From Alphaproteobacteria bacterium (GTDB taxonomy: Bacteria > Pseudomonadota > Alphaproteobacteria > Rs-D84 > CACZYB01): a stretch of 64,000 nt of DNA. The notes under the pieces were generated by a model. It was not told the origin of the DNA, did no database searches, and was given only the letters and a program-made list of their open reading frames with translations. This document shows positions 3,048 through 42,269 of this stretch, in pieces. The position numbers and the translations under genes were made by a program. The DNA lies in contig JBJEXC010000001.1 of NCBI GenBank assembly GCA_051885355.1, positions 14,359 to 78,358 on the forward strand, read 5' to 3'. Positions within the stretch are counted from its first letter, which is position 1. Every line of letters starts with the position of its first letter.

Positions 3048-4844
3048 ATGATTCCTGAGAGCGGGGAAAAAGAATTTATGACTGATGAAAATTCTTCACT
3101 TAATGGTTTTAGGTGGAGATTGTTTGATGCCGATGAACGATTCGTTCAAACGGTATGTCAGAAATATAATCTTCCAGATATTATTGCAAGAATTATAAAT
3201 TCACGAAAAATTACTTTTGAGGAAACGGAAACTTATATCTCTCCGCAAATAAAAAATTTGCTTCCATCTCCATTTATTTTAAAGGATATGGATAAGGCAG
3301 TTGAAAGAATTGTTCGTGCAATAGAAAGTGGCGAAGCAATAGGTATTTTTGGTGATTATGATGTTGATGGTGCTACCTCATCTGCAATACTATATAAATT
3401 TTTATATGATGTAGGCGTTAAGAATATTCAAATTTTTATTCCTGACAGACAGAATGATGGTTATGGATTAAATTCCGAGGGATTAAAAAAATTAATGAAT
3501 GCCGGTTGTTCTTTGGTTGTTGCGGTTGATTGTGGTATTACTGGATTTGATGCAGTAGATATGGCAAATCAAATGGATTTGGATATTGTAATTGCCGACC
3601 ATCATGAGGCAGAGGTTGGAATACCAAATGCAGTTGCAGTTGTCGATCCAAAACGTGTTGATGATGATTCTGGACTTACTTATCTGGCAGCATGTGGCGT
3701 AGTATTTTTGTTAACAGTAGCCATTAATAAAACTTTGCGTGAAAGAGGTTTTTATAAAAATAAAGGTATAGAGGAGCCGGATTTATTTTCTTATCTGGAT
3801 TTGGTCGCACTTGGAACTGTGTGCGATGTTGTGCCTCTTGTCGGGGTTAATCGTGCATTTGTTTCTGTGGGTGTAAAGGTTATGGCGCGTAGGCAGAATA
3901 TAGGACTTAAATCACTTTGCGATGTGTCTGGGGTAAGCACTTCTCCTTCTGTGTATCATTTAGGATATGTTTTAGGACCAAGAATAAATGCAGGTGGGCG
4001 AGTTGGAAATTCCAGTATTGCTGCGCAACTTTTAACAACTCGTAATCCATTAACAGCGGACAGCCTTGCCCAAAAATTAAATAATTTTAATTTGGAACGA
4101 AAGGATATTGAGGCATCTGTTTTAGAACAGGCATTTACAAAGGTTGCAAGTGAGATAAAACCTGATGATAATTTTATATTTATAAGTGGTAAAAATTGGC
4201 ATACCGGTGTTATAGGAATTATTGCTGGAAGGTTAAAGGAGCGATATAATCTTCCTACTTGTGTTGCAACAATTGATGATAATGGTGTTGCAAATGGAAG
4301 TGGAAGAAGTATTCCCGAAATTGATTTGGGAACTGCTATAATAAAGGCAAAAGAACTTGGTATTTTAACAGAAGGTGGCGGGCATTCTATGGCAGCGGGC
4401 TTTACTCTTCGTGTTGAAAAAATAGATGAATTTAAAAAATTCCTTCATGATTATATTGAATCATCAACAAAATCACAAAAAATTATTCCTGTATTAAAAA
4501 TAGATTCTGTGATTGACATTACTGGAATAAATGCTGATTTGGTAAAGAGACTTCAGATTTTGGAACCTTTTGGAACAGCAAATGAAGAACCTAGGTTTGC
4601 AATACTTAATGCTAAACTTACAGGAAGTGATGCGATAGGTGGCGGAAATATCAGGTGTTATTTTTCATCTGATAATGGAAAAAGCATTTCTGCAATTTGC
4701 TATAAATCTGTGGATACTCCTGTCGGTGAAGTGCTATTATCTGAAATAGGGGAGCGTTTCAAGTTGGCTGGAAAGATAAGGTCCAACAGTTGGAACGGTA
4801 AAAATTATATACAATTTATAATTGATGATATTGCAAAAATATAA
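3048..4844 (+). CDS. recJ: Single-stranded-DNA-specific exonuclease RecJ
   Basis: DHH family motifs GDYDVDGATS and IADHHE; DHHA1 C-terminal region (GGGHSMAAG); length 598 aa. Confidence 0.9.
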   Translation: MIPESGEKEFMTDENSSLNGFRWRLFDADERFVQTVCQKYNLPDIIARIINSRKITFEETETYISPQIKNLLPSPFILKDMDKAVERIVRAIESGEAIGIFGDYDVDGATSSAILYKFLYDVGVKNIQIFIPDRQNDGYGLNSEGLKKLMNAGCSLVVAVDCGITGFDAVDMANQMDLDIVIADHHEAEVGIPNAVAVVDPKRVDDDSGLTYLAACGVVFLLTVAINKTLRERGFYKNKGIEEPDLFSYLDLVALGTVCDVVPLVGVNRAFVSVGVKVMARRQNIGLKSLCDVSGVSTSPSVYHLGYVLGPRINAGGRVGNSSIAAQLLTTRNPLTADSLAQKLNNFNLERKDIEASVLEQAFTKVASEIKPDDNFIFISGKNWHTGVIGIIAGRLKERYNLPTCVATIDDNGVANGSGRSIPEIDLGTAIIKAKELGILTEGGGHSMAAGFTLRVEKIDEFKKFLHDYIESSTKSQKIIPVLKIDSVIDITGINADLVKRLQILEPFGTANEEPRFAILNAKLTGSDAIGGGNIRCYFSSDNGKSISAICYKSVDTPVGEVLLSEIGERFKLAGKIRSNSWNGKNYIQFIIDDIAKI

Positions 4845-28908: not shown

Positions 28909-29183
28909 TTAAGCTATTCTTACAACGTCCGATACAAGAACTATAGTTTCTGCCCCTGTGAAAAGCACATTTTTTTTACAAGTTCCTTCTATATCTTTTA
29001 AAGAAAAAGTAGCAGTTGTAGTATTTTCTTCTGCTAAGACAGGGTTACTGCCAACATAAAGACTTAACATTAAAACTGTTGAAATTACAAATTTAAAAGA
29101 TTTTAAGATAGAAGTTTTGTTATGGAAAGAAGAAATAACTGACTTATTTACCCCCCCCCCATTTGTCTATTTATGTCTAACAT
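28909..29183 (-). pseudogene. Phase-variable small secreted protein gene, currently frameshifted OFF by a G10 tract just after the start codon
   Basis: Minus strand reads ATG TTA GAC ATA AAT AGA CAA ATG GGG GGG GGG TAA (MLDINRQMGGG*). With G11 or G8 the frame continues into a 91-aa ORF carrying a signal-peptide-like segment (ILKSFKFVISTVLMLSLYVGS). RBS AAAGGAAA upstream. Confidence 0.5.
29151..29160. repeat. Homopolymeric C10/G10 tract (only one of its kind in the window)
   Basis: Ten consecutive C in a ~30% GC background; no other G/C homopolymer longer than 5 seen. Confidence 0.95.
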
Positions 29184-35420: not shown

Positions 35421-35726
35421 ATGAAAAGATTTTTTTTAATATCAACAATACCAATATTTCTGGTTTTATTTGAATATGATGCATTCCCATCATCATTGGA
35501 TACAGCCCTACAAAAATACTGCATTCCAAAAGATGCAACTTATTGCTCCAGTAGTTTTAGGGCAAGATATAATATTGCAAATGATAGATGTGATTGCGCG
35601 AACAATACTTACCTAGAATATGATGCTTCAAAAAGACATTGCAAAATAAAATGTCCAGCAGGAAGTTATCCAGCCATAATACCATCATGTTCGGCTGGGT
35701 CAGTAAAATTTTTAATTGCACAATAA
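35421..35726 (+). CDS. Small secreted Cys-rich protein with ephrin-receptor/TNFR-like Cys repeat
   Basis: Strong RBS AAAGGAG. Signal peptide MKRFFLISTIPIFLVLF. CDCANNTYLEYDASKRHCKIKCPAGSY repeat (CxC..NTY...C..CP.G.Y). Confidence 0.6.
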   Translation: MKRFFLISTIPIFLVLFEYDAFPSSLDTALQKYCIPKDATYCSSSFRARYNIANDRCDCANNTYLEYDASKRHCKIKCPAGSYPAIIPSCSAGSVKFLIAQ

Positions 35727-35746
35727 ATATAAATAAGGAGTGGAAA

Positions 35747-37069
35747 ATGAAAAATAAAACAAAAATATTAATTGCTTCAAGTATATTGGGGGGAATGTCA
35801 ATTCCAGTATATTCACAAATATATATGTGTAAAACATGCCCAGCAAATACTTATTCAAACGGAAGTCAATGTGTCCCATGCGGGCAATACCAATATTCAA
35901 ATGCAGGTTCTTCATCTTGCACAGATTTAAAATATCAGATAGAAAGCACGGTTGCAAGTTTAACAAAGGGAGGACAACAAACAGAAGGAACTTTAACCCC
36001 AGGATATTATGTAGTAATCCTTGGTGGTGGTAATGGTGGAGGAAGTCGAGACAACAAGTATATAGAGAACAATAGTGGATTACTTTCCTGGAATATTAAC
36101 AGCAATTTTAATATATTTAATGATAAATTTATGAAATTAAGTTGTGAAGAAGATGCAAGCGATGATGATTATTATTCATATACTAATATATTTCCAAAAA
36201 ATAAATATACTGTTCCTTATTCCAAAGCAGGTTTAGGGGCACAAATGCAATATGTTATAAAAGTTGATACAAATACCCCATATATTCTTGCATCTGGTGA
36301 AGATGGAAAAAGTGATGGCTCTGCATGTGGTGGTGGCGGTGGTTCCTGGTTAAAACTTGGTAATACCTATTATGTCGCTGGTGGCGGTGGAGGTGGTGTT
36401 AATATACATAACTATTCTAGGTATAGGAGTCCGGAAGGTGGTGCTGGTGGTGGTATCGGTGCCGGCGGTGGCGGTGGTGACCATTATAAAGGTTTAGTCG
36501 GTGCTGCAGGTGGAGCAAGTGGACATTACTCTGGTGGTGCTGGTGGTAGAGGTGATAGAGCAGGTGGAGTAGGTTCCGGTCCACAAGGAGGTCGAGGTGG
36601 TAATGTTGATAGAACAGCATCTTGTCATACAGCAGAAATTGAAGTTGCAAGTGGAAATCCTTATGGAGGTCTTGGTGGAGTAACATCAAGAGATAGTAAT
36701 TGTTCATCAACTATGTCAAAAATTAGTTTTAAATATCCAACATGTTCCAACTATGCTTCCTATAACAAAAATCTACCTGTAGAACGTACCGAAGAGTATG
36801 ATTGCGATAGTGATAATAATTGTTATTATAAATATTGTAATACATCATATTTTGGAACAGAAGTTTGTTCATTTAATGAGTATAGAGAGTATGACGACGA
36901 TGATGATATTGTTGCTAGATATTTAGCAAATTTATTCATTGCCTCTGAAGATACTTTCAGTAATTATATAAGAAATGGAGAAGATGGTAAAACATCACAT
37001 ACTTCTAATACAAATAAATTTAATAATCAATTGTGTAGGAACTGTGCAAAGATATTTAAAATAAAATAA
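35747..37069 (+). CDS. Secreted protein: N-terminal ephrin-receptor-like Cys repeat + long Gly-rich blocks + Cys/acidic C-terminal region
   Basis: RBS AAGGAG. Signal peptide. CKTCPANTYSNGSQCVPCGQYQYSNAGSSSC (paralogous to the previous gene). Gly-rich blocks (GYYVVILGGGNGGG, TYYVAGGGGGGV, GGAGGGIGAGGGGGD...GGAGGRGDRAGG). DDDDD stretch. Terminator follows. Confidence 0.7.
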   Translation: MKNKTKILIASSILGGMSIPVYSQIYMCKTCPANTYSNGSQCVPCGQYQYSNAGSSSCTDLKYQIESTVASLTKGGQQTEGTLTPGYYVVILGGGNGGGSRDNKYIENNSGLLSWNINSNFNIFNDKFMKLSCEEDASDDDYYSYTNIFPKNKYTVPYSKAGLGAQMQYVIKVDTNTPYILASGEDGKSDGSACGGGGGSWLKLGNTYYVAGGGGGGVNIHNYSRYRSPEGGAGGGIGAGGGGGDHYKGLVGAAGGASGHYSGGAGGRGDRAGGVGSGPQGGRGGNVDRTASCHTAEIEVASGNPYGGLGGVTSRDSNCSSTMSKISFKYPTCSNYASYNKNLPVERTEEYDCDSDNNCYYKYCNTSYFGTEVCSFNEYREYDDDDDIVARYLANLFIASEDTFSNYIRNGEDGKTSHTSNTNKFNNQLCRNCAKIFKIK

Positions 37070-37072
37070 AAA

Positions 37073-37110
37073 ATTCCCCCAGCCTTAAAACTGGGGGATA
37101 ATTTTTTTAT
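37073..37110. terminator. Bidirectional rho-independent terminator
   Basis: CCCCCAG-CCTTAAAA-CTGGGGG flanked by A- and T-runs, between convergent genes. Confidence 0.7.
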
Positions 37111-37118
37111 ATAAAAAG

Positions 37119-37442
37119 TTACATAGGTAAATCAACACCCTCTGGAAGTTGAAGCCCGCTTGTTGCCTCTTCCATAGTAGCAGTAGAAATCTCATCTGCT
37201 TGTTCCTTTGCATTATTCATTGCAGCAACAACCAAATCTTCCAATGTTTCTTTTTCACTTTCCTTTAACAAAGATGAATCAATTTCACATTTTTTAACAT
37301 CTTTTGTGCAAGTCATTGTTATTTTTACAAGCCCACCACCAGCATTGCCAACAACTTCTTGTTTTGCAAGTTCAGCCTGTGCAATTTTAACCTTGTTTTG
37401 CATTGCTTGTGCTTGTGCAACTAAATCATTTAAATTAACCAT
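37119..37442 (-). CDS. ybaB: Nucleoid-associated protein YbaB/EbfC
   Basis: Typical 107-aa YbaB sequence (MQNKV...GGGLVKITMTC...); immediately downstream of dnaX as in most bacteria. Confidence 0.9.
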   Translation of the reverse strand: MVNLNDLVAQAQAMQNKVKIAQAELAKQEVVGNAGGGLVKITMTCTKDVKKCEIDSSLLKESEKETLEDLVVAAMNNAKEQADEISTATMEEATSGLQLPEGVDLPM

Positions 37443-37483: not shown

Positions 37484-37936
37484 CTATATTTCTTCAATCT
37501 TTGCAACATAAGAATTTGTAAAACTATGCAAAAGTTCTTTAAGTATAGGATTATTAGAAATTTCTTTAAGTTGTGCTTCAAATATATCGCGTTTTTTCTT
37601 GTAAATAGTATCCTCGCCAACTTCATTCGAATGTTCCACCTTTATATTATACTTCGCATTTGCAAAAAAAGTATTAAGGTTTTTAAGAAGTTCCCTCGGA
37701 TACCCAGTATCAAAATTTATAAATAATACCCCTTTATCAAAGGATACAAAGCGAACATATCTTTCTACATCTTGGGAAAGAAGGTAGTTTTTCTTTTCCT
37801 TTAAAATATCAACAATACTTTCAATGGAAAGAATTGATACATCAGTATTGCTACTTTCTTCTTCCTCAAACAAAGATGAAGAATTTGCTATGCTAGATAT
37901 TTTTTTTTTGAACTTCGGTTGAAGTCTGATTTTCAA
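37484..37936 (-). CDS. dnaX: DnaX C-terminal (tau-specific) segment, in a different frame from the dnaX N-terminal ORF
   Basis: Overlaps the 3' end of the dnaX ORF across an A10 run. Deleting one A fuses the frames seamlessly (…VQKKISSIANSS…). Confidence 0.55.
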   Translation of the reverse strand: MKIRLQPKFKKKISSIANSSSLFEEEESSNTDVSILSIESIVDILKEKKNYLLSQDVERYVRFVSFDKGVLFINFDTGYPRELLKNLNTFFANAKYNIKVEHSNEVGEDTIYKKKRDIFEAQLKEISNNPILKELLHSFTNSYVAKIEEI

Positions 37937-39089
37937 TCTTGTGAAGTATTTCCGCTGGACTTGGCATCATACCCACATAAGAAAGTCTTATAATAATCAT
38001 TTCCACCGCAGAAAGAACATTTGGAACACGGCTTAATTCGTCAAAGCCCTTCAATAACATCTGCCAAATACGGGAAAGAGTTGCAATACTTAAATTATGA
38101 GCCATATTGGAAATTTTTTCTTGTTCCGCCGGTGGCACAGGAACAGAAGCCAAAGAACTTGGTGTTATCTTTACCCTTGTAATATAATGGGTAATTTCCA
38201 ATAAATCAGTCAAAATTAACACTGGGTCCACACCCAAATCATATTGATTATCAATAATTTCAACTGCCTTTTGAATATCAGCCTTAATAATCGCATCATA
38301 TAAATCAAAGACAATCCCCTTTGATGCAAGTCCCAAAATCTTTGAAACTTTATCAACAGTAATATCACCATCACAATTTGAAATTACTTGATCAAGGAAA
38401 CTCATTCCATCACGCACAGACCCGTCCGCAGTCTTCGCAATAATATTTATTGAATCATCATCAATTTTCACATTTTCCAACTCGCAAATGTGTTTGAAAT
38501 GTTTTGACAAAGTTTCCAAATCAACACGCCTTAAATCAAATCTTTGACAACGAGATAAAACAGTAGGTGGCACCTTCCTTATTTCCGTAGTCGCAAAAAT
38601 AAATATTACATAAGGAGGAGGCTCTTCTAAAGTTTTAAGAAGTGCATTGAAAGCATTCTTTGAAAGCATATGAACTTCGTCAATTATATAAACTTTATAT
38701 CTTGCAGATGATGGCTTATATTGAACTCCGTCAATAATTTCCCTTATATCATCAACACCAGTATTTGAAGCCGCGTCCATTTCAATAACATCAATGTGCC
38801 TGTCTTCTGCAATTGCACGACAATTTTCACATACACCGCAAGGTTTCACTTGTGGACCAGTTGCCTTTCCGTCAGCACCAAGACAATTTAATGATTTTGC
38901 AAAGATTCGGGCAGTAGAAGTCTTTCCAACCCCACGAATTCCAGTAAATATATAAGCATGAGCAAGTCTGTTAGTATTTATTGCATTAGTAAGAGTTTTT
39001 ACTAAAACTTCTTGTCCTATAAGTTCATCAAAAGTGCTAGACCTATATTTCCTAGCCAATACCTTATATTTTACTTCTTCGTTTGCCAT
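37893..39089 (-). CDS. dnaX: DNA polymerase III subunit gamma/tau, N-terminal 398 aa (domains I-III)
   Basis: Walker A GIRGVGKTSTARIFAK; zinc module C..C..C; SRC motif; ends VQKKNI* inside the A10 tract. Confidence 0.9.
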   Translation of the reverse strand: MANEEVKYKVLARKYRSSTFDELIGQEVLVKTLTNAINTNRLAHAYIFTGIRGVGKTSTARIFAKSLNCLGADGKATGPQVKPCGVCENCRAIAEDRHIDVIEMDAASNTGVDDIREIIDGVQYKPSSARYKVYIIDEVHMLSKNAFNALLKTLEEPPPYVIFIFATTEIRKVPPTVLSRCQRFDLRRVDLETLSKHFKHICELENVKIDDDSINIIAKTADGSVRDGMSFLDQVISNCDGDITVDKVSKILGLASKGIVFDLYDAIIKADIQKAVEIIDNQYDLGVDPVLILTDLLEITHYITRVKITPSSLASVPVPPAEQEKISNMAHNLSIATLSRIWQMLLKGFDELSRVPNVLSAVEMIIIRLSYVGMMPSPAEILHKIENQTSTEVQKKNI

Positions 39090-41021: not shown

Positions 41022-42269
41022 ATGCCATTAAATGATGAAAAAATAGAACAAGCAAAAGATGATAACCCAAAAACTACGCCATTTCTTCTTTCCCATTTAA
41101 AGGAAGAAACGGAATTTTTTAATGCCTTTAAATCATCCCATCTTCATCATTCATGGCTTATCACCGGACCAAAGGGTATTGGTAAAGCAACACTTGCTTA
41201 TCGTATCGCAAGATACATTTTCTCATTATCAAATCCAGACCATTTAAAAAATCTTAATATAAAGATAGATACCACTTCACCCATACTTGACAACAATTTT
41301 TCTTATGAAGAGGAAGAGGAGGGTGATGATACTGAAACAATGGGCTTTTTTGAAAATGATTCTGTTGCCGTTTCCCAATCTCAGCCAAATATAAGCAAAG
41401 TTTCACTTGAAAAATTTGATACATCACCATTAAAACTTTCTCCCTCACATCCAATATTTGAAAGATTGACCGCTGGCGGACTTACCGATTTAATTATTGT
41501 CGAAAGGGAATACAGTGAAACCACAAATAAATTAAAAACAGAAATTTCAGTAGAGCAAATACGAAATTTAAAGGAATTTTTTTCCAAAACTTCATCAGAG
41601 GGCGGATACAAAATTGCAATTATCGACTCCGTCGATGAAATGAACGCCAACAGCAAAAATGCCCTTCTTAAAATATTAGAAGAAGCACCAGCAAAATCTT
41701 TATTACTTCTTATTTGCCATAATATAAATGGTATTTTGCCAACAATAAAATCTCGTTGTCGTATTTTAAAATTATCACCTATTGATAATGAAAATATGAA
41801 ACTTTTATTACAATTTAAATTACCAAATATTACAGATGAAGAAATCACAAAACTTATAAATATAAGTGACGGAAGTATCGGCACAGCAATAAATATTTAT
41901 AATAACAAAGGGCTTGACTTACAAAACAAAATTTTCAACCTTATCCCAGAAATTTTTAATAAAAAAAATAATGGCATTTTGGAAATTGCAAACCAAGTTT
42001 CAAATGAGGAGATTTTCAAAATCTTTCAAAATATAATTTTAAACTTTCTTTCAAATGCAATAAAATATAAATCAAAGATTGAACTTGAAAATATTGATAA
42101 TGTTGAAAAAATCGCACTTGAAACAATTACTATACATTATCAAAATATAAAATCTCTGTTTGCGATTCGCGAAAGTTTGTTAAACAATTTCCGCCTATAT
42201 CCACTTTTAAATCTTGATATAACAGCACTTATAATTTCAACATTTGAAAGGATAAAAAATGTTTATTGA
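41022..42269 (+). CDS. holB: DNA polymerase III delta' subunit
   Basis: AAA+-like HSWLITGPKGIGKATLAYRIA; conserved tmk-holB-tatD gene order. Contains an acidic insertion (EEEEEGDDTE). Confidence 0.75.
   Translation: MPLNDEKIEQAKDDNPKTTPFLLSHLKEETEFFNAFKSSHLHHSWLITGPKGIGKATLAYRIARYIFSLSNPDHLKNLNIKIDTTSPILDNNFSYEEEEEGDDTETMGFFENDSVAVSQSQPNISKVSLEKFDTSPLKLSPSHPIFERLTAGGLTDLIIVEREYSETTNKLKTEISVEQIRNLKEFFSKTSSEGGYKIAIIDSVDEMNANSKNALLKILEEAPAKSLLLLICHNINGILPTIKSRCRILKLSPIDNENMKLLLQFKLPNITDEEITKLINISDGSIGTAINIYNNKGLDLQNKIFNLIPEIFNKKNNGILEIANQVSNEEIFKIFQNIILNFLSNAIKYKSKIELENIDNVEKIALETITIHYQNIKSLFAIRESLLNNFRLYPLLNLDITALIISTFERIKNVY

What the first reader, a model, noticed from the sequence alone, without database searches (positions are those of the whole stretch)
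37484..39089. dnaX split at an A10 run: gamma-like short product in frame, tau only after a slip
The dnaX frame ends (…EVQKKNI*) inside a run of ten A. The following 150-aa ORF overlaps it in the +1 frame, and removal of a single A joins the two into one ~540-aa tau-length protein. This is either a homopolymer sequencing error or a genuine frameshift, and a genuine one could arise in three ways. It could be rescued by transcriptional slippage on A9+ tracts, as in AT-rich endosymbionts. It could be programmed, with gamma made in frame and tau by slippage, the mirror image of E. coli, mechanistically like Thermus dnaX with its A9 slippery run. Or the gene is an inactivated pseudogene.
Basis: partly seen in the sequence, partly recalled or inferred. 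Interest (0 to 1): 0.6.

Follow-up and report, generated by a model that had tools for sequence, protein, structure and literature searches.

The report
Conserved slippery A-run splits dnaX
The replication clamp-loader gene dnaX of this uncultured alphaproteobacterium is deliberately broken at a run of ten A's, so the short gamma form is made by normal reading and the essential long tau form only after a slip. This is a recoding arrangement already described in other phyla, here conserved across a whole new clade.

Summary
On the minus strand, dnaX (39089..37893, 398 aa, domains I-III) stops two codons after an A10 run (37909..37900). The tau C-terminal domain (PF12362) continues in the +1 frame to 37484, and A9 or A12 gives a 534/535-aa tau.

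It is neither a sequencing error nor a pseudogene. About 40 protein clusters at 63-100% identity, from independent assemblies, all end at the same place. Every short-form relative whose DNA I could fetch carries a pure A10 run (A11 in one), including lineages with 56-64% GC where AAG is the preferred Lys codon.

- The downstream ORF is under purifying selection and has no conserved start codon.
- Both non-tau frames close within six codons.
- Run length is conserved, but codon phase and required shift direction differ between lineages.
- Nested sister lineages carry the run in frame (A11).

These features point to programmed transcriptional slippage, Thermus-like but with the roles reversed. 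A small hairpin just upstream of the run recurs in most lineages.

The architecture (gamma templated, tau by recoding at A10) was described by Antonov et al. 2013 in Chlorobi, Bacteroidetes and Verrucomicrobia. This is a new alphaproteobacterial member, needing the opposite shift: one A fewer or two more.

The parts
37893..39089 (-). dnaX zero-frame ORF (398 aa): the gamma-like product with clamp-loader domains I-III. Its stop codon TAG lies at 37895..37893.
   Evidence: PF13177, PF22608, PF12169. It is identical to NCBI MGN0929061.1, 'DNA polymerase III subunit gamma/tau'.
37900..37909 (-). Slippery homopolymer A10 (T10 on the + strand): the recoding site.
   Evidence: Conserved as a pure A10 (A11 in L097) in all 16 fetched short-form relative loci. 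The run stays pure although AAG is preferred over AAA in GC-rich lineages.
37484..37900 (-). Tau-specific C-terminal segment (about 137 aa) in the +1 frame. It is reached only from mRNAs with A9/A12 or by a ribosomal +1/-2 shift. NCBI annotates it as hypothetical protein ACI4N3_00265.
   Evidence: PF12362 at E=1.3e-14. 48% identical to the C-terminus of the full-length DnaX P0022. dN/dS 0.18-0.25. No conserved start codon or SD. AlphaFold2 model with pLDDT 82.
37888..37890 (-). Stop codon (TAG) of the third frame. It terminates the product of A11 mRNAs at 400 aa.
   Evidence: In the eleven short-form loci tested, both non-tau frames stop within 6 codons (five GC-rich loci).
37911..37926 (-). 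Small hairpin GACUUC-AACC-GAAGUU (6 bp, 4-nt loop) ending 1 nt upstream of the run. A candidate nascent-RNA stimulator of slippage.
   Evidence: A hairpin ending 0-4 nt before the run is predicted in 10 of 12 lineages, with different stem sequences. The 24-nt MFE falls in the lowest 5% of same-gene windows in 7 of 12. Function is inferred, not shown.
37119..37442 (-). ybaB/ebfC, the next gene of the dnaX operon.
   Evidence: PF02575. The same dnaX-ORF2-ybaB order is seen in relatives.
37075..37098 (-). Terminator-like hairpin plus T-run closing the dnaX-ybaB unit.

Best explanation
This is a programmed recoding site in dnaX.

Faithful transcription and translation of the A10 template gives a 398-aa gamma-like clamp-loader subunit (domains I-III). 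RNA polymerase slips on the A10:T10 hybrid and produces mRNAs with variable A-run lengths.

- A9, A12 (and A15) mRNAs put the downstream PF12362 domain in frame and give the 534/535-aa tau. Tau is the form that carries the C-terminal domain needed to hold the polymerase.
- A11 mRNAs give a second short form of 400 aa.

One gene therefore delivers both subunits, as in Thermus thermophilus, but with gamma as the templated product and tau as the slippage product. A 6-bp hairpin that forms in the nascent RNA 1 nt upstream of the run may favour forward realignment, that is loss of one A.

Shown:
- the anatomy;
- conservation of the run;
- selection on ORF2;
- closure of both other frames;
- absence of an independent start.

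Inferred:
- that the slip is transcriptional;
- the ratio of the two products;
- the role of the hairpin.
For: 1. About 40 clusters at 63-100% identity are all 394-400 aa and end in ..QKKN(x)* or ..KKK*. No fused form occurs among the relatives at 63% identity or more; the only fused close relatives are the nested in-frame trio at 54-61%.
2. DNA of 16 short-form relative loci was fetched: L001-L006, L087-L091, L093-L097. Fifteen carry exactly A10 and one carries A11, and in all of them tau is out of frame.
3. The run is kept pure in lineages with GC3 of 0.75-0.88, where AAG outnumbers AAA and CAG outnumbers CAA. About 1e-4 such runs are expected per gene there.
4. ORF2 is translated. dN/dS is 0.18-0.25. 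Among near-identical strains there are 8 synonymous and 3 non-synonymous variants in the tau frame, against 2:9 and 1:10 in the other frames.
5. No start codon or SD is conserved for ORF2, and three lineages have no ATG/GTG/TTG there at all. In L087 a tau-frame stop abuts the run, so the shift must happen inside it.
6. Run length is conserved, but codon phase differs (position 3 in L090/91, position 2 elsewhere). The required direction also differs: A10 to A9/A12 in most, A10 to A11 in L095/96, A11 to A12 in L097. Mixed direction is the criterion Antonov et al. used to infer transcriptional realignment. A conserved run length is Baranov et al.'s criterion.
7. No SD-like element or significant downstream structure was found, and there is no Rfam DnaX frameshift element.
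8. The nested sister L092 has A11 in frame, with both other frames closing, which is the Thermus-like arrangement.
9. Both non-tau frames stop within 6 codons even in GC-rich lineages, where the background probability is 0.00-0.33.
10. A11 templates yield A10-A15 mRNAs in Citrobacter tssM (PMC4256274).
Against: - No RNA or protein data exist for any member, so transcriptional versus ribosomal slippage is inferred from sequence logic only.
- In E. coli and Buchnera, slippage at A/T runs gives mainly insertions (PMC5574713). In Thermus the extra A's come 'in a diminishing proportion' (PMC5009743). On that pattern an A10 template needing -1 or +2 would make tau a minority product, which is awkward for an essential subunit.
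- The hairpin statistics treat related lineages as independent. In GC-rich genes the hairpin is not unusual (L089 at 0.40, L097 at 0.30).
- That PF12362 is the alpha-binding domain V is not demonstrated. Foldseek places 2AYA at rank 2 with E=0.1, and hhalign against E. coli domain V gives probability 1%.
Confidence: 0.7

Rival explanations
1. Ribosomal frameshifting or sliding on the poly(A): tRNA-Lys re-pairs +1 or -2 within AAA AAA AAA on a homogeneous A10 mRNA, giving tau. It could also operate alongside transcriptional slippage.
For: The run offers perfect re-pairing for tRNA-Lys in any frame. Ribosomal frameshifting on runs of A is long known (Atkins 2016), and ribosome sliding on long A stretches has been reported (own knowledge: Koutmou et al. 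2015). The Atkins 2016 review treats some reversed dnaX genes as possible ribosomal frameshifts.
Against: - Codon phase of the run and the required direction differ between lineages while run length is conserved.
- There is no conserved slow or stop codon in the A site.
- There is no SD-like element, no significant downstream structure and no Rfam DnaX element.
- The E. coli heptamer A_AAA_AAG is absent.
Confidence: 0.2
2. Homopolymer sequencing or assembly error: the real gene is an intact A9 or A12 tau ORF.
For: Homopolymers are the classic site of indel errors, and the window comes from a metagenome-assembled genome.
Against: - The same 398-aa product occurs in six members of the window's 90% cluster, on 14 or more contigs.
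- 23 contigs carry P0014 exactly.
- About 40 clusters from NCBI, ENA, Logan and JGI assemblies are truncated at the same site, and none among the relatives at 63% identity or more is fused.
- All 34 ORF2 homologues are stand-alone.
Confidence: 0.01
3. Non-programmed frameshift tolerated through leaky slippage, as in AT-rich endosymbionts (Buchnera, Blochmannia), or a decaying pseudogene or split gene whose tail is made separately.
For: The window is 31% GC and runs of eight or more A/T are common in it.
Against: - The site is conserved across relatives down to 63% identity and across 25-64% GC.
- It is the only gene in 64 kb split at a homopolymer.
- ORF2 is under purifying selection.
- ORF2 lacks any conserved start codon or SD.
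- The break falls exactly at the domain III/IV boundary where gamma ends in other bacteria.
- Both other frames close at once.
Confidence: 0.04
4. DNA-level phase variation: the run changes length during replication, switching tau on and off in subpopulations.
For: Run length does vary between close lineages: A10 against A11 in L097, and probably in P0004 at 94% identity. A poly-G tract elsewhere in the window looks like a contingency locus.
Against: Tau is the essential form (bioRxiv 10.1101/2022.11.10.516041), so an OFF state would be lethal. No assembly among the relatives at 63% identity or more shows the in-frame length. The observed variants (A10, A11) are both out of frame for tau.
Confidence: 0.03

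Closest known systems
Two-ORF dnaX with poly-A run in which tau requires recoding (Antonov, Baranov, Borodovsky et al. 2013, NAR 41:6514, PMC3711429; mentioned in Atkins et al. 2016, PMC5009743)
   Same: dnaX is split into a gamma-length ORF and an overlapping tail ORF at a run of 10 A's. Gamma's stop lies just after the run, and tau is made only by recoding. Programmed transcriptional realignment was proposed there from alignment with the Thermus poly-A motif, and no experimental test of the dnaX cluster is described.
   Different: - The published cases are in Chlorobi, Bacteroidetes and Verrucomicrobia, and none is alphaproteobacterial.
[quoted passage not shown]
- Here the tail is in the +1 frame (A10 followed by T), so tau needs one A fewer or two more.
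- The tail here is the alphaproteobacterial PF12362 domain.
- I did not verify the frame direction on their sequences. I took it from the paper's statement and the Fig. S3 snippets.
Thermus thermophilus dnaX transcriptional slippage (Larsen et al. 2000; summarised in PMC1088944 and PMC5009743)
   Same: A homopolymeric A run (A9) at the domain III/IV junction, heterogeneous mRNAs, stop codons close by in both alternative frames, and two subunits from one gene.
   Different: In Thermus tau is the templated zero-frame product and gamma comes from slipped mRNAs. Here the roles are reversed. The Thermus-like register does occur in the nested sister lineage L092 (A11 in frame) and in a Marinicaulis MAG (A9 in frame).
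Escherichia coli dnaX -1 programmed ribosomal frameshift (A_AAA_AAG plus an upstream SD-like element plus a 3' stem-loop)
   Same: The same gene, the same junction, and the same outcome of two subunits sharing domains I-III.
   Different: Here there is no A_AAA_AAG heptamer, no SD-like stimulator, no significant downstream stem-loop and no Rfam match. In E. coli gamma, not tau, is the shifted product.
Hairpin-stimulated transcriptional slippage of Roseiflexus IS630 (Penno et al. 2015, as described in PMC5009743)
   Same: A 6-bp stem with a 4-nt loop in the nascent RNA, directly 5' of the slippage motif. In Roseiflexus this promotes forward realignment, that is loss of one nucleotide, which is the change that makes tau here.
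   Different: The motif there is the heteropolymeric T5C5, which does not slip without the hairpin. Here the run is A10, which can slip unaided. The hairpin's effect is untested, and the hairpin is absent in L095/96 and not adjacent to the run in L071.
Caulobacter crescentus DnaX processing by ClpXP
   Same: An alphaproteobacterium that also makes tau and gamma forms from one dnaX gene with a PF12362-type tail.
   Different: In Caulobacter gamma arises by partial proteolysis of full-length tau. No recoding is involved.

Membership tests
Two-ORF, poly-A dnaX (tau by recoding; Antonov 2013 type) | A gamma-length ORF (domains I-III) terminating within a few codons after a poly-A run of 7-10 A's | tested here: met
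   ORF1 of 398 aa carries PF13177, PF22608 and PF12169. Its stop lies 2 codons after the A10.
Two-ORF, poly-A dnaX (tau by recoding; Antonov 2013 type) | An overlapping downstream ORF that encodes the tau-specific C-terminal region | tested here: met
   PF12362 at E=1.3e-14. 48% identical to the C-terminus of the full-length P0022.
Two-ORF, poly-A dnaX (tau by recoding; Antonov 2013 type) | Run and ORF arrangement conserved among homologues | tested here: met
   All 16 fetched short-form relative loci carry A10 (A11 in one). About 40 protein clusters are truncated at the site.
Two-ORF, poly-A dnaX (tau by recoding; Antonov 2013 type) | -1 frameshift at the DNA level (tail ORF in the -1 frame, restored by one extra A) | tested here: not met
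   In the window and most relatives the tail is in the +1 frame. A9 or A12 restores tau, and A11 gives 400 aa. The feature is met only in L095/96 and L097.
Two-ORF, poly-A dnaX (tau by recoding; Antonov 2013 type) | Tau-length protein actually produced | not testable with these tools
   This needs proteomics or a reporter assay. It is supported only indirectly, by purifying selection on ORF2.
Thermus-type dnaX transcriptional slippage | Homopolymer of 9 or more A's at the domain III/IV junction, with stops nearby in both alternative frames | tested here: met
   A10 here. The A10 and A11 products are 398 and 400 aa. The same holds in all the short-form lineages tested.
Thermus-type dnaX transcriptional slippage | Tau encoded in the zero frame and gamma from slipped mRNAs | tested here: not met
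   The zero frame gives gamma. The feature is met in the sister L092 and in L060.
Thermus-type dnaX transcriptional slippage | Heterogeneous A-run lengths in mRNA | not testable with these tools
   No transcript data were available.
E. coli-type dnaX -1 PRF | A_AAA_AAG heptamer with an upstream SD-like element and a downstream stem-loop | tested here: not met
   The run is followed by T, and no AGGA/GGAG lies upstream. Downstream 50-nt z-scores range from -2.35 to +1.26 and no structure is conserved. Rfam gives no DnaX element at E up to 10.
Endosymbiont-type non-programmed poly(A) frameshift rescue | Many genes interrupted at long poly(A) tracts, with tracts not conserved between species | tested here: not met
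   Only dnaX is interrupted in the 64 kb. The tract is conserved down to 63% identity and in GC-rich relatives.
Hairpin-stimulated slippage (Roseiflexus IS630 type) | Nascent-RNA stem-loop immediately 5' of the slippage motif | tested here: inconclusive
   A hairpin ending 0-4 nt before the run is predicted in 10 of 12 lineages, and 7 of 12 fall in the lowest 5% of same-gene windows. The combined p of about 1.5e-5 assumes independence. Some of the apparent covariation could follow GC drift.
Tau domain V (PF12170 / PDB 2AYA) | Sequence or fold match of the tail to E. coli tau domain V | tested here: inconclusive
   No PF12170 hit at E up to 1. Foldseek ranks 2AYA second, but with E=0.1 and TM 0.29. 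hhalign gives probability 1.2%. The profile search against PDB found no tau chain.

The most novel reading that the evidence does not exclude
The clade has turned dnaX into an evolutionary toggle on a single homopolymer. The register of the A-run has flipped repeatedly: A10 needing -1/+2, A10 or A11 needing +1, and A11 or A9 in frame. Which replicase subunit is 'templated' therefore changes between lineages.

Where tau needs the loss of one A, a terminator-like nascent-RNA hairpin directly upstream of the run biases RNA polymerase toward forward realignment, so that enough of the essential tau is made. That would be a hairpin-directed, deletion-type programmed slippage in a core chromosomal gene. 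Until now this has been known only from an IS element.
Probability: 0.3. Interest if true: 0.7.

Novelty: new member of a known kind. Interest (0 to 1): 0.5.

Why it matters
- Annotation. Public records call the 398-aa ORF 'gamma/tau' and the tail 'hypothetical protein'. The essential tau of a whole clade of uncultured alphaproteobacteria is therefore missing from the databases.
- Biology. It extends the reversed dnaX architecture to the Alphaproteobacteria, where the only characterised route to gamma is ClpXP proteolysis in Caulobacter.
- Comparative material. The clade offers a natural series of one run at 25-64% GC, three registers and hairpin present or absent. This series can be used to test what sets slippage direction and efficiency, and why bacteria keep both DnaX forms.

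Tried and rejected
- The metagenome scan with the tail alignment gave only two loci.
- Exact look-up of the window's own two ORFs and of P0001 found nothing on record.
- Foldseek against PDB, hmmsearch against PDB and hhalign against E. coli tau domain V gave no significant match. Equating PF12362 with domain V therefore rests on the Pfam description and on position in the protein.
- Downstream structure as a frameshift stimulator is rejected. Only L089 has a strong hairpin (z=-2.35), and it is not conserved.
- Independent initiation or termination-reinitiation of ORF2 is rejected, because no conserved start codon or SD exists.
- Other overlapping ORF pairs in the window (7812/8176, 33330/33709, 35052/35639, 54298/54608) give no sign of being split genes: tyrS and rsmH are full-length matches and the rest match no Pfam family.
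- The Larsen et al. 2000 paper is not held. The Thermus details come from reviews.
Full report
**1. The observation**

The gene is on the minus strand. ORF1 (39089..37893, 398 aa) ends ...GAA GTT CAA AAA AAA AAT ATC TAG. The ten A's are window positions 37909..37900, seen as T10 on the + strand.

A second ORF runs to 37484 in the +1 frame. Removing one A, or adding two, fuses the ORFs into a 534- or 535-aa protein. Adding one A gives a 400-aa product.

ORF1 has the three clamp-loader domains (PF13177, PF22608, PF12169). ORF2 matches PF12362, 'DNA polymerase III gamma and tau subunits C terminal', at E=1.3e-14, and does not match PF12170.

The window is about 31% GC. It contains as many A/T runs of 10 or more as its composition predicts: 2.0 expected, 2 observed. 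The other T10 is intergenic. The run alone is therefore unremarkable, and the case rests on comparison with relatives.

**2. Not an error, not a pseudogene**

A search with the fused protein found about 40 clusters at 63-100% identity. All are 394-400 aa long, come from NCBI, ENA, Logan and JGI assemblies, and end ..QKKN(x)* or ..KKK*. The only full-length close relatives are P0022, P0032 and P0036, at 54-61% identity.

The window's protein is NCBI MGN0929061.1, from a MAG labelled Alphaproteobacteria bacterium. Its 90% cluster holds five more 398-aa variants on at least 14 contigs. P0014 alone is carried by 23 contigs. All 34 detectable homologues of ORF2 are stand-alone small ORFs, and the window's own is annotated 'hypothetical protein'.

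I fetched DNA for 16 short-form relative loci:

| Loci | Run | Tau restored by |
|---|---|---|
| L001-L006, L087-L091, L093, L094 | exactly A10 | A9 or A12 (529-537 aa) |
| L095, L096 | A10 followed by C | A11 |
| L097 | A11 | A12 |

These loci range from 25% to 64% GC. In the GC-rich ones GC3 is 0.75-0.88, and AAG and CAG are the preferred codons, yet the junction stays CAA AAA AAA AA. About 1e-4 such runs are expected per gene there.

ORF2 is under purifying selection. dN/dS is 0.18-0.25 for the closer pairs, although dS is saturated. Among near-identical strains, variants are 8 synonymous to 3 non-synonymous in the tau frame, against 2:9 and 1:10 in the other two frames.

ORF2 has no conserved start codon or SD. 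Three lineages have no candidate start at all. In L087 a tau-frame stop directly abuts the run, so the frame change must occur within the run.

In GC-rich lineages both non-tau frames stop within 6 codons, although the background probability in off-frames of the same genes is only 0.00-0.33. This points to selection for clean gamma ends.

**3. Mechanism**

Run length and purity are what is conserved. Three other things are not:

- Codon phase. The run starts at codon position 3 in L090/91 and at position 2 elsewhere.
- The base after the run, which is T or C.
- The direction of the required shift, which is -1/+2 nt in most lineages and +1 nt in L095/96 and L097.

Conserved run length is Baranov et al.'s criterion for purposeful transcriptional slippage (PMC1088944). 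Mixed direction is Antonov et al.'s criterion for transcriptional realignment rather than ribosomal frameshifting (PMC3711429).

I found no SD-like element, no conserved downstream structure and no Rfam DnaX frameshift element. A11 templates are known to give A10-A15 mRNAs in Citrobacter tssM (PMC4256274). Thermus A9 gives a graded series of longer mRNAs (PMC5009743).

I therefore favour RNA polymerase slippage (about 0.7), with ribosomal sliding or frameshifting on the A-run as the main rival or a co-contributor (about 0.2).

One difficulty remains. Slippage at A/T runs is mostly insertional (PMC5574713), whereas most of this clade needs -1 or +2.

A possible answer is a small hairpin that ends 0-4 nt upstream of the run. 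In the window it is GACUUC-AACC-GAAGUU at 37926..37911. It is predicted in 10 of 12 lineages with different stems:

- ACUUC/GAAGU
- UUCAUC/GGUGAA
- CGGCG/CGCCG
- CCUC/GAGG
- UUCCUC/GAGGAA
- GGCCUU-type

The 24-nt window is in the lowest 5% of same-gene windows in 7 of 12 lineages. The hairpin is unremarkable or absent in the three lineages that need an insertion (L095, L097, L071).

A 6-bp, 4-nt-loop nascent hairpin directly 5' of the slip motif is what drives one-nucleotide-deletion slippage in Roseiflexus IS630 (PMC5009743). This link is a hypothesis. The lineages are related, numbers are small, and GC drift could mimic covariation.

**4. Evolution**

A rough NJ tree of the N-terminal domains puts all A-run lineages in one clade, with the three in-frame genes nested inside it. 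L092 (P0022) has A11 in frame, with A10 giving QKKN* and A12 stopping at 401 aa, which is the Thermus arrangement. The run is therefore ancestral to the group, and its register has flipped several times. [quoted passage not shown].

Outside the clade, two of 80 alphaproteobacterial dnaX loci show related states. A Marinicaulis MAG has an in-frame A9 with both other frames closing. A Paracoccaceae MAG has A12, with tau restored by A13 or A10.

**5. Comparison with what is known**

Antonov et al. 2013 described 17 two-ORF dnaX genes in 12 genera, nine of them with A10. The nine listed in their Fig. S3 are Chlorobi, Flavobacterium, Cytophaga, Capnocytophaga and Coraliomargarita. [quoted passage not shown] Atkins et al. 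2016 mention the same reversed architecture.

The present case has the same architecture in a new class. In the window and most relatives it has the opposite frame relation, and the tail is the alphaproteobacterial PF12362 domain. It is not the E. coli type, and it is not the Thermus type in register. I found no paper reporting it in Alphaproteobacteria, where Caulobacter makes gamma by proteolysis.

**6. Limits**

- There are no transcript or protein data.
- The identity of PF12362 with the alpha-binding domain V is unproven. The AlphaFold2 model of the tail is confident (pLDDT 82) apart from the 22-residue linker.
- I took the frame direction of the published cases from the paper and did not re-derive it from their genomes.

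**7. Verdict**

It is a new member of a known kind, with variant features (direction, register flipping, upstream hairpin) worth experimental follow-up. Interest 0.5.

Noticed in passing
window 29151-29160 (minus strand; ORF start about 29181): A C10/G10 tract, very unusual in a 31% GC genome. It sits at codons 9-11 of a small minus-strand ORF with an SD-like AGGAAA upstream. G10 gives an 11-aa stub (MLDINRQMGGG*). G11 gives a 91-aa protein with a signal-peptide-like segment. It looks like a slipped-strand phase-variable small exported protein that is 'OFF' in this assembly.
   Followed up: partly
L071 (JBJLFU010000015.1, Paracoccaceae MAG LRMED-264), run at 3804: A separate alphaproteobacterial lineage whose dnaX has an A12 run. 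The zero frame gives 439 aa, and A13 or A10 gives 557-558 aa. The same 6-kb locus holds further A9 and A13 runs. It could be a second, independent reversed dnaX, or an error-prone assembly.
   Followed up: partly
L060 (JAJFGE010000134.1, Marinicaulis sp. MAG), run at 3670: An in-frame A9 at the domain III/IV junction of a 598-aa dnaX. Both alternative frames stop at 393-407 aa, and a GC-rich hairpin lies directly upstream. This is a Thermus-like arrangement in a free-living alphaproteobacterium.
   Followed up: partly
L092 (JGI 3300042612 Ga0466705_444331), run at 3675: The full-length sister gene (P0022, 526 aa) carries A11 in frame, preceded by the hairpin UUCCUC-GGCU-GAGGAA. A10 would give QKKN* (395 aa). 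It shows the register of the same run flipped relative to the window.
   Followed up: yes
proteins P0171, P0173, P0174, P0176, P0180, P0183, P0188: Stand-alone proteins of 155-185 aa, only 24-30% identical to the tau tail. They appear among the 29 library representatives that match the tail, and may mark further lineages with a split dnaX.
   Followed up: no
window 35639-37069 (+): A 476-aa ORF next to the dnaX-ybaB operon. It has a signal-like N-terminus and long Gly-rich stretches (GGGGGS, GGAGG repeats) and no Pfam match. Relatives have different genes at this position.
   Followed up: no
window 41022-42269 (+): A holB-like gene (delta prime, PF13177) of 415 aa. The Pfam match begins only at residue 151, so it carries an unexplained N-terminal extension of about 150 aa. 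Relatives encode products of 400-422 aa at the same position.
   Followed up: no
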